A stretch of 64,000 nucleotides of DNA from the human T2T-CHM13v2.0 reference genome, Homo sapiens: NCBI RefSeq assembly GCF_009914755.1, contig NC_060935.1; one strand, 5' to 3'. The translations under genes and the position numbers were made by a program. The notes beneath the pieces were generated by a model. That model was not told the DNA's origin. It did no database searches and was given only the letters and a program-made list of their open reading frames with translations. Positions 32,866-37,821 of this stretch are shown in pieces (within the stretch, counting starts at the first letter, position 1; every line of letters starts with the position of its first letter).

Positions 32866-33805
32866 CTGACAAATTATTTTTATAGCCTAAATAGTAGGTG
32901 ATGACTGCCTGAATTAGGGTAGTAACAGGGGATCATGGAAAGAAAGAAATGGATTAAGGATTTATGTATTTTTGGTAGAGCCAGCATGACTTGTTTGAAA
33001 TAAAGAAAATAATGGGATAAAGATGGTTCTTACGCTAGAGGAGCTGTGTAAATAATTGTTCCAATGTAACATATTTATTCTTTAGAATCCAAATTCTATG
33101 CAGCCGCCTCAGTAGTAGTTACAGTGGTAAGAGAATCTCAGTGAATAGAAACTCTTAGTTAATAGTTGTTTTTTTCTTCTCTACATTTCAATGGGTAGAC
33201 CTTAGTTCCTTGGTAAAGTTTTCTATATTAATATACTATATAAGATTTTATTTAGATAATTAATTTCACTGCCAAACAGGAGGGTTGAAAATCACTTTAC
33301 TAGCATCTGGGAAAATACATTGATTATTCTTGTATTCTTCCTTGGCAAAAAATGAAAATAATTATATGAAAATATTGATATTTTAGTCAGGATAGATTGA
33401 TGTTCATTATATGTCCAGCTCAATTCTAAACCATTTAAGTGTCTTAGATTGTATTCTCATAATCCTATAATATGGGTAGTATTAACCTCAGCTGATAAAG
33501 GATCAAGATCAGAAAGGTCAAGCACACAAATGGTTGGGATGATACTTAAATTAGGTCTGATAACAACATTTATATGTGCTCATCTACAGCACAGAAAATT
33601 CTCCTAGACTGAATAATAGAAAAGTTTAAACTATATTTTCTGATACATATCTTTGCTGCAAAGCAGTAATGAAATTAAAATAAGAACTTAGCGAAGTGTC
33701 TTACAGAGGGACCTTGTTAATTTCAAACTTCCTTGAAGTTATCACTAATTAGTATAAAGTGCCTGTGTACAGAGTTATTACAATTCATATTTGTCAAGAA
33801 TAAGC

Positions 33806-34121
33806 AATCACTTAATAATGGGTTATTTTAATAATCTTAGATCCATTTATTATATATTAGATTTTCTTTTAAAGTTACTATATGTGTATATGCATATATG
33901 TGTGTACGATGTGCATGCATTTGTTTGTATAACAACCACTATCACCAAAACTGTGTCCCCACTATGCCGGGTATCCAGCAGTGTGAGAATGGACTAATGC
34001 ATATGCATTTGTTTGCGTTCACATCATACACACATATATACATATACACATATAGTAACTTTAAAAAATGTAATATAAATGTATCAAAGATTATTAAAAT
34101 AACCCCAGTTATTAAGTGATT
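33806..34121. repeat. Long inverted repeat (~110-bp arms) with a templated insert at the centre
   Basis: 33806-33919 pairs with 34014-34121 (few mismatches, small indels); 13-bp direct repeat atgcatttgtttg at 33915-33927 and 34003-34015. Confidence 0.93.
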
Positions 34122-35064
34122 AGTTGAGATTGGAACACATAGGTTTCAGAGGTATTTAGAAATTGCTTCAAAAACTAGGTACAGGTACTCCACGATACAA
34201 TACTTAAATGTTAGAAGACTTACTTGAAGAGCATACGTATTTTCAATTTATGTAGAAGCAAGAGAAAACTCAGTAATAAAATATCATACATATAGACAGA
34301 CTATCATGAGAGCAATAGAGCAAATTGATTGTGTTTACATGGTTTTTTTCTATATTCAGGATGACAAGTAATACCTACAAGTCTATAGGAATTATCCAAG
34401 TTTTTCAATATCTAGTTCAAATTGTAGGTGAAAAATCTGAATTTACATAAACATTTTTTAATAATTTTCTACTAACGGGGTTTGCCCTTCTGAACTATAT
34501 ACTTAAAAGTGTTTAAACTTTTACTAAGTACTGAGAATATTTCAAAGAAATAGGAAACAAAGTTGTTTTTCACAACATTGTTAATAATGACATAAAATTA
34601 GCAGCAGTGCAAGTGACTAATAAGGGGGGATTGATTAGGAATATTTGGTATATCCCATATGCTACAATAATCGACATCCATTAAGCACTGTGTAGACAAT
34701 CATATTGAGAAATGACTGTATCCAACATAAGATTTAAGAAATGTAAAACAGCATGGATAATGTTATCGAAATTTCATTAAAACAAGCTAGATAAAAGTAG
34801 TATACAGAAATACATTTAAAACGTAACAATGGTTATCAATTTCTGAAGTGATGATAGATTATGCTCATTTTCTTCACATTTTCTCTTTGCGGTGTTATAA
34901 TAAACACGTATTTATCTTCAAAATTTTTAAAGGAATAGATTAAGTATCTGATGTAATAATGACAGTAATAAACTTTTAACATATAAGCTAAAATACTTCA
35001 GTGTGTGTATTTAGCATCATTATATTCTAATTTTAGGAGCTCAAGTACATTTGAACACTGCTGT

Positions 35065-35245: not shown

Positions 35246-35529
35246 AGGACAAAAACTCTCTTAAGTAGAAATGTTGTTTCCTGATTTTTGATTAAATGAA
35301 CACTGAATATACAATAGAACATTTAACAAAATATTTTATAAAACAAAACACCAGCTAAGTTGTATTATGTAAGAAACTCATTAGTTCACATGAGTAGTAC
35401 TTTGAGTCATCTTCTAGCAGTGCAAAAGACAGTAAGTAAGATGGTCTTACAGACAATAGTCTGATAGCTGCAATGTTAACTCTATAGACAAATTTAAATA
35501 TTTTAAGACTTGCATTAAGAAAAGAAATA

Positions 35530-36227
<698 letters not shown>

Positions 36228-37821
36228 TTTAGGCCAACACAATCAAAGTATTGTCCTTTTAATAGCAATCAAAAATTATTAATGGGGAATTTTACATTTA
36301 TTGTACTTATTGTTCAAACTCTGTTGTGTATATCTTAAGGTCAGACTAGCCACGTTTCAAATGCTCAATACATGGCTAGTGTCTACAGTATTGGAACGGC
36401 ACGGGTAGAGACCATGGCTTAATTTGTAAGTTATAAAGTCTATTAAGACTGAGCCTTATGTCTTTCAGTTTGTACTCTATCACTGTGTTCATTATATTCT
36501 TTGGATGTGGGAAGACATGCTTTGTACAAATGGCTCCAGGAGTTTTCAAAATCTTTATGAAGACATGATGACATTCCAGCTACACTTAATAATTGCATTA
36601 TTGTTTACATATGATTGTGCTGCCCGAGTTCCCACTCAGTGGTCCAGTAACAACCACACTCACTAAAACTGCATCCCCACTGTGCTGGGTATCCAGCTTG
36701 AATTTATACAAGTTGTAGGTTGTGGTGATTTTCTTTCCCCACCAGTAGAGTAGAGAGATCTCCAGGATCCAGAAAAGGCCGTGCTTTAGGGGCAAGGGTG
36801 CAAGGAAAACCTGGACCAGAGTTTTCAGTTCTCAGTAACAACATTTTCAGTAATTCTTGTTCTAGAAATACAGGATATCAATGGCATTTTTCGCTATAGC
36901 CATCGTTTTGCTATAACATTTTATTACATTAGAATTATAATTTTCTCTAATATTAGATTAATTTGAAGAATAAGTATGGCTGCTTAAGGAACAAATACTT
37001 TGTTGGATCACTGGAACTATTATGCTGATTACAAGTTGAGGAATTTATATTTAGTCAATGCCCAAATGTATTATAACTTAAAATAACTCAGAGATGCCAC
37101 ATTTTTTCCATTTATATAATTTGAAGAAATATTTATTACTACTGAAATTTATGACCACATGGATCTTCCAGGGTACCTTATTAATTTTTAATTTATTCTT
37201 TAATAGAAAAAATGTGCACATGCTAATTTAGCTAATATGGTATAATGTGGAATGCCAAATGTTGTGTCTAACACAGAATCTTTTTCCTGGTAGCACTAAA
37301 GCCGCTTTATCAGGACAGACTCATATTCTGTCCTCAATTCCAAGATACACAATAATTGAATAAGAATATGTAATTATGTTTAGAAAATAAACCTTGAAGT
37401 GATACTTCATTGAATATATAGTTCGCTATAAGAAGGATTTCATTTTCAGAAGTGTAAAAATGTGAATAATAGGAAGAAAACTTTTATTTTCAAATCAAGA
37501 AACTATGTATTAATTGGGAAGTTAACACAGCAGCAGATGCTAATTTGCATAACTTGCCTTACTGTATTCTAGCAAAAGAAATATGTGAAATTCAAAACTG
37601 AACAATTTTGATGTGACCTGGAGTTAAGAAAGTTAGAGAGCATCTACATATTTAAGGAAAATGTCTGGGCATTTTTGAAGAGTAGTAATCGTGGAGGAGG
37701 AGAAACGTAACCAGAGAGCAAGGCAAGACATGTGAAAAAAATACACATTAATGATACTATAGGAATAATTGAATCTTCAAACACAAATTTTGATTTTATT
37801 ACGGGAGCATTGAAACTACAA

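What the first reader, a model, noticed from the sequence alone, without database searches (positions are those of the whole stretch)
33806..34121. Former ~230-bp palindrome whose tip was interrupted by a TSD-flanked, locally templated 75-bp insert
Seen: arms 33806-33919 and 34014-34121 are reverse complements. The centre holds a 75-bp insert (33928-34002) between exact 13-bp direct repeats (atgcatttgtttg, 33915-33927 / 34003-34015). Removing the insert and one repeat copy gives ...gatgtgcatgca-tttgtt-tgcgttcacatc..., a near-perfect AT-rich palindrome with a 6-nt loop. Known: long AT-rich palindromes extrude cruciforms, break at the tip and are stabilised by central rearrangements. Inference: this is a fossil of palindrome-tip breakage healed by templated-insertion repair (polymerase-theta or MMBIR-like).
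Basis: partly seen in the sequence, partly recalled or inferred. Interest (0 to 1): 0.8.

Follow-up and report, generated by a model that had tools for sequence, protein, structure and literature searches.

The report
Old inverted repeat with patched centre
About 110 bases of a CNTN5 intron were once copied backwards next to themselves, and the middle of that hairpin-prone structure carries a 75-base patch stitched from two other sequences; it is a readable but ordinary scar of DNA repair or replication.

Summary
Arms 33806-33919 and 34014-34121 are reverse complements (99 matches, 7 mismatches, 10 gap columns). An exact 13-bp direct repeat flanks a 75-bp centre. Removing 33928-34015 in a script gives a hairpin with a 6-nt loop.

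The arms occur nowhere else in the T2T genome and have no outer target-site duplication, so this is not a MITE.

The insert is chimeric:
- 33930-33979 copies window 36648-36697, 2.7 kb downstream on the same strand, at 43 of 50 bases.
- 33980-34001 is the exact 3' terminus of a high-copy LTR family (6381 genome matches against 4 controls).
- The two pieces meet at a shared AGC, and this junction is unique in the genome.
- A solo LTR of that family lies 420 nt upstream of the first donor.

This fits serial template switching (MMBIR/FoSTeS-like) better than classical polymerase-theta flank copying. No primate orthologues were available, so I could not test whether an uninterrupted palindrome ever existed or whether arm and patch arose in one event. 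The finding is a new example of known processes and of modest interest.

The parts
33806..33919 (.). Left arm of the inverted repeat (114 nt, 76% A+T)
   Evidence: Absent elsewhere in the genome.
33915..33927 (+). Left copy of the 13-bp direct repeat ATGCATTTGTTTG. It covers the last 5 nt of the left arm, the 6-nt inferred loop (33920-33925) and 2 nt that pair as the start of the right arm.
   Evidence: (family D3).
33928..33929 (+). TA dinucleotide with no separate template. It may be a TA slippage, since the insert reads G-TA-TAAC where the donor reads G-TAAC.
   Evidence: Junction printout.
33930..33979 (+). Insert piece A: a 50-nt copy of window 36648-36697, identical at 43 of 50 bases
   Evidence: E = 2e-7 in the window; score 65; the 7 differences, 3 of them at two CpG sites. 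No other genome copy.
33977..33979 (+). AGC shared by the end of donor A and by the bases just before the LTR terminal block: 3-nt microhomology at the A-to-B switch
   Evidence: AGC precedes the 23-mer in 6 of 11 fetched LTR copies and in the local LTR.
33980..34002 (+). Insert piece B: the last 22 nt of a high-copy LTR, ending in its terminal CA at 34001, plus one extra T at 34002
   Evidence: 6381 matches at up to 3 mismatches, 4 controls. (11 of 11 copies share upstream LTR sequence and diverge after the CA). (units bounded by TG and CA, with 5-bp duplications).
34003..34015 (+). Right copy of the 13-bp direct repeat
34014..34121 (.). Right arm of the inverted repeat (108 nt, 77% A+T)
36648..36697 (+). 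Donor of piece A, 2.7 kb downstream on the same strand. The preceding base G (36647) equals the last base of the 13-mer.
35878..36227 (+). Solo LTR of the same family as piece B. Its 3' end (36201-36227, followed by T at 36228) is the candidate local donor of piece B, 420 nt upstream of donor A.
   Evidence: (66-76% identity to 11 other copies). Its terminal 27-mer is private to this copy.

Best explanation
This is a two-step scar in neutral intronic DNA.

Step 1 (inferred). A replication or repair template switch, or fold-back priming at the self-complementary CATGCA/ATGCAT tip, copied about 110 nt of unique sequence backwards next to itself. That made a palindrome of about 230 bp and 76% A+T with a 6-nt loop.

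Step 2 (anatomy shown, mechanism inferred). The palindrome broke or stalled replication at its tip. A 3' end finishing in ...ATGCATTTGTTTG was then extended in stages:
- It primed with 1-3 nt of homology on sequence 2.7 kb downstream and copied 50 nt.
- It switched at a shared AGC onto the 3' end of an LTR and copied 22-23 nt up to the LTR terminus.
- It rejoined the locus 13 nt behind its point of departure, which duplicated the 13 nt that bracket the tip.

The result is an inverted repeat with a 94-nt spacer, much less prone to extrude a hairpin, and it then drifted neutrally.

The enzymology fits serial microhomology-primed template switching (MMBIR/FoSTeS-like or aberrant SDSA) better than classical polymerase-theta flank copying. 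I infer no present function.
For: - Arms and direct repeat are real and not chance.
- The arms are single-locus: the DNA search finds only itself; a 31-mer at up to 3 mismatches finds only itself; a 28-mer finds only the two arms, with 0 controls.
- A 26-mer pattern gives 13 hits against 5 controls. Twelve of the hits have exactly 3 mismatches; 9 of those were fetched and none extends.
- There is no outer target-site duplication: the flanks read AAGAATAAGC and AGTTGAGATT.
- Piece A matches 36648-36697 at 43 of 50 bases, score 65 against a shuffle maximum of 35.
- A genome scan for A's 23-mer gives 16 hits: the 2 in the window, plus 14 with 3 mismatches. All 14 were fetched; 13 do not extend and one (L024) extends to 41 nt.
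- Piece B is an LTR terminus.
- The A|B junction 24-mer occurs only here, plus 1 hit on chr12 at 3 mismatches, although more than 6000 LTR ends exist.
- Microhomologies G and AGC sit at the junctions.
- A same-family, same-orientation LTR end lies 420 nt from donor A.
- Deleting 33928-34015 restores a hairpin with a 6-nt loop.
- Literature, from passages read: breakage at palindrome centres and an asymmetric insertion allele of PATRR8 (PMC4255720); spacers reduce cruciform and stalling propensity (PMC3300023); multi-template insertions with microhomology in human MMBIR (PMC8421209); short-range template switches in great apes make inverted copies up to 128 nt, median 12 (PMC7954356).
Against: - The order of events is untested because no orthologues were available.
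- Piece A is, if anything, more diverged from its donor (7 of 50) than the arms are from each other (7 of 106). That is opposite to the simple expectation for a later insertion, but it is not significant (p = 0.14) and could reflect gene conversion between the arms.
- The last junction (B to the right repeat copy) shows a tandem ATGCAT-ATGCAT that the model does not explain cleanly.
- Piece B differs from the local LTR end by 2 substitutions and 2 indels. All are private to that LTR, so thousands of other copies match B better.
- A 13-bp duplication is not the usual outcome of end joining, which normally deletes bases.
Confidence: 0.5

Rival explanations
1. One event. A fork stalled just after ...TTTGTTTG (33927). 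The nascent strand switched to donor A, then to the LTR end, returned 13 nt back, hit the same barrier again, and then folded back to copy the left arm in reverse before resuming. On this reading the right arm and the 75-bp patch have the same age and no uninterrupted palindrome ever existed.
For: - The anatomy and microhomologies are the same as for the best explanation.
- Both departures occur at the same nucleotide.
- Arm divergence (7 of 106) is not larger than insert-to-donor divergence (7 of 50).
- Multi-template complexity is described for human MMBIR events (PMC8421209, passages).
Against: - It needs five switches in one event.
- Palindrome-tip fragility already explains why a second, independent event would hit exactly the tip (PMC4255720).
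- Nothing in the sequence marks a barrier at 33928.
Confidence: 0.3
2. An RNA or cDNA patch. The break at the tip was filled from reverse-transcribed material: CNTN5 intron RNA for piece A and a free linear LTR-element cDNA for piece B. Copying ran off the cDNA end, which would explain why B stops at the LTR's terminal CA.
For: - Both pieces are in the sense orientation of CNTN5.
- B ends at the exact LTR terminus plus 1 nt.
- B matches the common form of the family better than it matches the neighbouring LTR.
- Class 2 templated sequence insertions derived from RNA are described in humans (PMC5110952, abstract and passages).
Against: - A same-family LTR end in the same orientation 420 nt from donor A would then be a coincidence. 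I estimate this at about 1% from the copy number.
- Class 2 insertions are described as lacking target-site duplications, and this one has 13 bp.
- There is no poly(A) on either strand.
Confidence: 0.1
3. The whole 316 bp is a palindromic DNA transposon or MITE with long terminal inverted repeats and an internal region.
For: The shape alone: long inverted termini around a short core.
Against: - No other copy exists in 3.1 Gb. Arms that are 93% alike imply a young element whose sibling copies would be about 90% identical and easily found.
- There is no TA, TTAA or 8-bp duplication at the outer borders.
- The core is itself a mosaic of a local sequence and an LTR end.
Confidence: 0.03
4. The 75 bp was inserted by LINE-1 target-primed reverse transcription (a class 1 templated insertion). 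That would account for a 13-bp target-site duplication.
For: A 13-bp duplication lies in the range typical for LINE-1 (range recalled). Class 1 insertions are defined by a duplication of at least 5 bp (PMC5110952).
Against: - There is no poly(A) or poly(T) at either end of the insert.
- There is no polyadenylation signal.
- The target ATGCATTTGTTTG|CG is not a TTTT/A site (judged against the criteria).
Confidence: 0.03
5. The centre is original spacer sequence, and 36648-36697 was copied from it rather than the reverse. On this reading the 13-mer repeat is an unrelated small duplication.
For: The direction of copying cannot be read from two copies alone.
Against: - The 50 nt at 36.6 kb has no flanking repeat and sits in continuous sequence. 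The copy at the centre is fused to an LTR end at a junction unique in the genome and is bracketed by the 13-mer.
- The chance of such a 13-mer repeat is about 0.3%.
Confidence: 0.04

Closest known systems
Centre-break revision of palindromes, and asymmetric alleles of human palindromic AT-rich repeats (for example the PATRR8 L allele)
   Same: A long A+T-rich inverted repeat whose rearrangement is confined to the symmetry centre and leaves a spaced, more stable repeat. PATRR8 has an allele with an asymmetric insertion of unknown origin, and its breakage occurs at the centre (PMC4255720, passages).
   Different: - The arms here are about 110 nt and 76% A+T, whereas the PATRR8 S allele is about 310 bp and 97% A+T.
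- The event here is old and apparently fixed.
- The origin of the insert can be traced here.
- The paper that defines the centre-break mechanism (Cunningham et al. 2003) is not held. I saw only its title in reference lists.
MMBIR/FoSTeS templated insertions
   Same: Several templates were used in series, with short microhomology (G, AGC) at the switches and a donor within kilobases (PMC8421209, passages).
   Different: - The signature that MMBSearch detects is an inverted template within 100 bp. Here the template is direct and 2.2-2.8 kb away.
- There is no associated copy-number change beyond 13 bp.
[quoted passage not shown]
   Same: A templated insert with at least 1 nt of priming homology, and iterative priming and dissociation (PMC4032859, passages).
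   Different: - TMEJ inserts copy sequence flanking the break and usually accompany deletions of 50-200 bp.
- Here the donors are kilobases away and 13 bp was gained.
Short-range template-switch mutations in great apes (four-point model)
   Same: These create inverted copies, and hence hairpin-forming repeats, from neighbouring sequence in one step (PMC7954356, passages).
   Different: The median inverted fragment is 12 nt and the maximum 128 nt. An arm of 108-114 nt is at the extreme of that range.
Templated sequence insertion polymorphisms (classes 1 and 2)
   Same: A short patch copied from elsewhere and inserted at a break (PMC5110952).
   Different: It fits neither class: it has a duplication but no poly(A) or TTTT/A site (not class 1), and it has a duplication and a local donor (not class 2).

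Membership tests
Palindrome centre-break scar | Two long inverted arms of high identity | tested here: met
   99 of 106 aligned bases match. The fold has z = -18.
Palindrome centre-break scar | The rearrangement is confined to the symmetry centre | tested here: met
   The 13-bp duplication spans the last 5 nt of the arm, the 6-nt loop and 2 nt of the other arm. Removing 33928-34015 restores a 6-nt loop.
Palindrome centre-break scar | An uninterrupted palindrome existed before the rearrangement | not testable with these tools
   This needs orthologous primate loci. No eukaryotic relatives are held ('It has no relatives here').
TMEJ (polymerase theta) templated insertion | Insert copied from sequence immediately flanking the break | tested here: not met
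   Donor A is 2.7 kb away. No part of the insert matches the flanks beyond the ATGCAT hexamer. The criterion comes from PMC4032859.
TMEJ (polymerase theta) templated insertion | At least 1 nt of homology at the junctions | tested here: met
   G at the left junction and AGC at the A|B junction.
MMBIR/FoSTeS multi-template insertion | Two or more templates joined at microhomology | tested here: met
   Piece A (local) and piece B (LTR end) share AGC, and the junction is unique in the genome.
MMBIR/FoSTeS multi-template insertion | Replicative origin: a broken or stalled fork, dependent on Pol delta/Pif1-type machinery | not testable with these tools
   This cannot be read from a fixed sequence.
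LINE-1 mediated (class 1) templated insertion | Target-site duplication of at least 5 bp | tested here: met
   13 bp, exact.
LINE-1 mediated (class 1) templated insertion | A poly(A) tail, and insertion at a TTTT/A site | tested here: not met
   There is no A or T run at either insert end, and the target is ATGCATTTGTTTG|CG. The criteria come from PMC5110952.
MITE / DNA transposon | Multiple copies in the genome | tested here: not met
   Only this locus. The 12 weak hits at 3 mismatches compare with 5 controls, and none of the 9 fetched extends.
MITE / DNA transposon | Target-site duplication at the outer borders | tested here: not met
   The flanks are AAGAATAAGC and AGTTGAGATT.
MITE / DNA transposon | Match to a curated consensus (Dfam/Repbase) | not testable with these tools
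   No eukaryotic repeat library is on hand.
LTR terminus (piece B); the family name ERVL-MaLR, MST/THE1-like, is recalled and not tested | The sequence is the last bases of a unit of about 350-400 nt bounded by TG and CA and flanked by 5-bp duplications, present in many copies | tested here: met
   - 6381 matches against 4 controls.
- 11 of 11 fetched copies align to the local LTR over 343-350 of its 350 nt.
- 10 of 11 begin with TG and 11 of 11 end with CA.
- The 5-bp flanks are identical in 4 of 11, match at 4 of 5 bases in 5 of 11, and at 3 of 5 in 2 of 11.

The most novel reading that the evidence does not exclude
Piece B stops at the exact terminal CA of the LTR because the repair polymerase ran off the end of a free, linear LTR-retroelement cDNA after switching from the local donor. 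On that reading the locus is a germline fossil showing that a break at a palindrome tip in a primate ancestor was healed by template switching between chromosomal DNA and an extrachromosomal retroelement cDNA. It would also date the event to the period when that LTR family was active.
Probability: 0.12. Interest if true: 0.5.

Novelty: new member of a known kind. Interest (0 to 1): 0.3.

Why it matters
Palindrome fragility, centre revision and templated insertions are mostly studied in model systems, in tumours and at a few translocation hotspots. Fixed germline examples in which both donors and all junctions can still be read are useful as worked cases. They also help calibrate genome-wide screens for spaced inverted repeats whose spacer is a traceable patch. 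The palindrome catalogue I checked requires a perfect 8-base centre, so it would miss this class of locus (PMC7680136). By itself the locus is neutral intronic DNA, and I found no sign of function.

Tried and rejected
- Wider similarity to the donor neighbourhood. With the 50-nt match masked, similarity between the palindrome region and 36400-36900 is at chance level: scores 24 and 28, and 12 of 100 shuffles reach 28.
- The upstream 52 nt of the insert as LTR sequence. Pairwise alignments to 11 LTR copies score within the shuffle range. One 12-mer, CTGTGTCCCCAC, matches the 5' region of the LTR in 8 of 11 copies. The copies are not independent, so I treat this as one coincidence.
- The insert as a contiguous fragment of an LTR subfamily. 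The A|B junction 24-mer is found only here, plus one hit at 3 mismatches.
- Donor A as part of an old repeat. One chr13 locus (L024) extends the match to 41 nt (4 of 200 seed-kept shuffles do as well). A 554-column alignment at 52% identity is equalled by 6 of 200 shuffles. This is inconclusive. It does not compete with the local donor, because the insert matches L024 at 21 of 26 bases and only over those 26 nt.
- Rfam. The only hits are sub-threshold mir-297 matches: 31.8 and 21.4 bits against a gathering score of 90. They lie on the TG/CA-rich inner arms and are a low-complexity artefact.
- Sensitivity of the own-genome DNA search. It did not report the 86% 50-nt donor even at E up to 10. 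For that reason the absence claims rest on the exhaustive pattern scans.
- In print. 'CNTN5' plus 'palindrome' gave 1 paper, a CRISPR review by its title. 'CNTN5' plus 'common fragile site' plus 'replication stress' gave 1 unrelated GWAS. I found no description of this locus.

Full report
**Observation**

Window 33806-33919 and 34014-34121 are reverse complements with 99 matches, 7 mismatches and 10 gap columns (the differences are itemised). The repeat finder reports the same arms as pairs I1, I2 and I10. The inverted local-alignment score is 78, against a mean of 14 and a maximum of 24 in 200 shuffles.

As single-stranded DNA the 328-nt stretch folds at -85.1 kcal/mol, z = -18.3, and 0 of 100 shuffles fold as well. 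The 13-mer ATGCATTTGTTTG occurs exactly twice in the window, at 33915-33927 and 34003-34015, with 0.01 copies expected. 17 of 5000 shuffles of the region contain any exact 13-mer direct repeat.

Slicing out 33928-34015 in a script gives a 240-nt hairpin of -74.9 kcal/mol with one 6-nt loop. The arms are 76-77% A+T and the insert is 55%.

**Not a transposon**

- The whole-genome DNA search with 33780-34150 finds only the locus itself.
- A 31-mer from the arm terminus at up to 3 mismatches finds only itself, with 0 controls.
- A 28-mer finds only the two arms, with 0 controls.
- A 26-mer gives 13 hits against 5 controls. Twelve of those hits have exactly 3 mismatches. The 9 that were fetched do not extend beyond about 25-34 nt.

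The arms are 93% alike, so sibling copies from the same burst would be about 90% identical and could not have been missed. The outer flanks, AAGAATAAGC and AGTTGAGATT, show no duplication. No Dfam-type library was available, so a curated-consensus test was not run.

**The insert is a mosaic**

BLAST of the 75-nt insert against the window shows that 33930-33979 matches 36648-36697 on the same strand at 43 of 50 bases, E = 2e-7. The Smith-Waterman score is 65, while shuffled controls peak at 35. Nothing else in that neighbourhood is similar beyond chance: 12 of 100 shuffles reach the residual score.

A degenerate 23-mer from this piece has 16 genome hits. Two are in the window and 14 have 3 mismatches. 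All 14 were fetched; 13 do not extend and one (L024, chr13) extends to 41 nt. The insert matches L024 only over 26 nt (21 of 26), so the local copy is the donor. Three of the 7 differences between piece A and its donor sit at two CpG sites, one read TG against CA and one CG against TG. That is as expected for old copies.

The remaining 23 nt (33980-34002) behave quite differently. They have 6381 genome matches at up to 3 mismatches, against 4 controls. In 11 of 11 fetched copies the match is preceded by shared sequence and followed by unrelated sequence right after ...CA.

Pairwise alignment to the element at window 35878-36227 shows units of about 350-400 nt. Ten of 11 start with TG and 11 of 11 end with CA. 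The 5-bp flanking duplications are identical in 4 of 11 copies and match at 4 of 5 bases in 5 of 11. These are solo LTRs. From memory they look like ERVL-MaLR (MST/THE1-type), but I could not test the name.

Piece B is therefore the last 22 nt of such an LTR plus one T. The A|B junction 24-mer is unique to this locus: 1 exact hit, plus 1 hit on chr12 at 3 mismatches. The insert is therefore not a fragment of an LTR subfamily.

**Junctions**

- Left: the 13-mer ends in G. The donor base before piece A is also G (36647). The insert reads G-TA-TAAC where the donor reads G-TAAC.
- Middle: AGC is shared by the end of donor A (36695-36697) and by the bases before the LTR block. It is present in 6 of 11 copies and in the local LTR.
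- Right: B ends ...AATGCA-T and is followed directly by the second 13-mer, giving a tandem ATGCAT-ATGCAT that I cannot explain cleanly.

**Where piece B came from**

A same-family LTR lies in the same orientation with its end at 36227, 420 nt upstream of donor A, and the next base is T, as in the insert. From the copy number I estimate the chance of such proximity at about 1%.

Against the local LTR as donor, its terminal 27-mer differs from B by 2 substitutions and 2 indels. These are private to that copy: the genome scan finds only itself. They could pre-date or post-date the event.

A free LTR cDNA end would explain why B stops at the exact LTR terminus. I leave the donor of B open.

**Mechanism**

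The anatomy is a 3' end extended on two ectopic templates through 1-3-nt homologies, which then rejoined 13 nt back. This is serial template switching.

It does not fit the TMEJ footprint, which is flank-templated with deletions (PMC4032859, passages). It is also not the inverted template within 100 bp that MMBSearch detects, although multi-template complexity is listed for human MMBIR events (PMC8421209, passages). It meets only 1 of the 3 class 1 LINE-1 criteria and is not class 2 (PMC5110952).

The inverted arm itself is the kind of product that short-range template switching makes, at the upper end of the size range seen in great apes (maximum 128 nt, PMC7954356). Centre breakage, asymmetric centre alleles and the stabilising effect of spacers are established for human palindromes (PMC4255720; PMC3300023).

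**Order and age**

With recalled neutral rates of 0.5-2.2e-9 per site per year, arm divergence (Jukes-Cantor 0.069) gives roughly 16-69 My. The divergence between piece A and its donor (0.155) gives more. The two do not differ significantly (p = 0.14).

Only orthologous primate loci can decide this, and none is reachable here.

**Verdict**

This is a real, well-resolved repair or replication scar. It is a new example of known processes, with the added detail that the patch is a two-donor chimera ending at an LTR terminus. There is no sign of function: Rfam gives only sub-threshold, low-complexity mir-297 hits. I found nothing in print on this locus. Interest is modest.

Noticed in passing
window 35878-36227 (+): A solo LTR of 350 nt bounded by TG and CA, 66-76% identical to 11 other genome copies. 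The family name MaLR MST/THE1-like is recalled only. Its flanks ATGGT and TTTAG no longer show a 5-bp duplication.
   Followed up: partly
window ~35527-35850 (+): An Alu-like element (recognised by eye from GGCTCATGCCTGTAATCCCAGCACTTTGGGAGGC...) with an A-rich tail, lying directly upstream of the solo LTR. It coincides with the NCBI-masked stretch 35486-35851.
   Followed up: no
window 33878-33935 (+) and 33982-34039 (-): Sub-threshold Rfam mir-297 matches: 31.8 and 21.4 bits against a gathering score of 90. They fall on the TG/CA/ATGCAT-rich inner arms and are most likely a low-complexity artefact.
   Followed up: partly
window 36674-36714 against L024 (G000:C13, around 54445400, minus strand): A 41-nt match at 83% extends past the end of donor A. 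A longer alignment at 52% identity is only weakly above shuffles: 6 of 200 reach its score. Donor A may sit in an old low-copy repeat.
   Followed up: partly
window 33951-33962: The 12-mer CTGTGTCCCCAC in piece A equals a motif near the 5' start of the LTR family, in 8 of 11 copies. The donor reads CTGCATCCCCAC there. This is probably coincidence.
   Followed up: partly
tool behaviour: The own-genome DNA search did not report the 86% 50-nt donor 2.7 kb away, even at E up to 10. Negative results from that mode are weak for short, diverged matches.
   Followed up: yes
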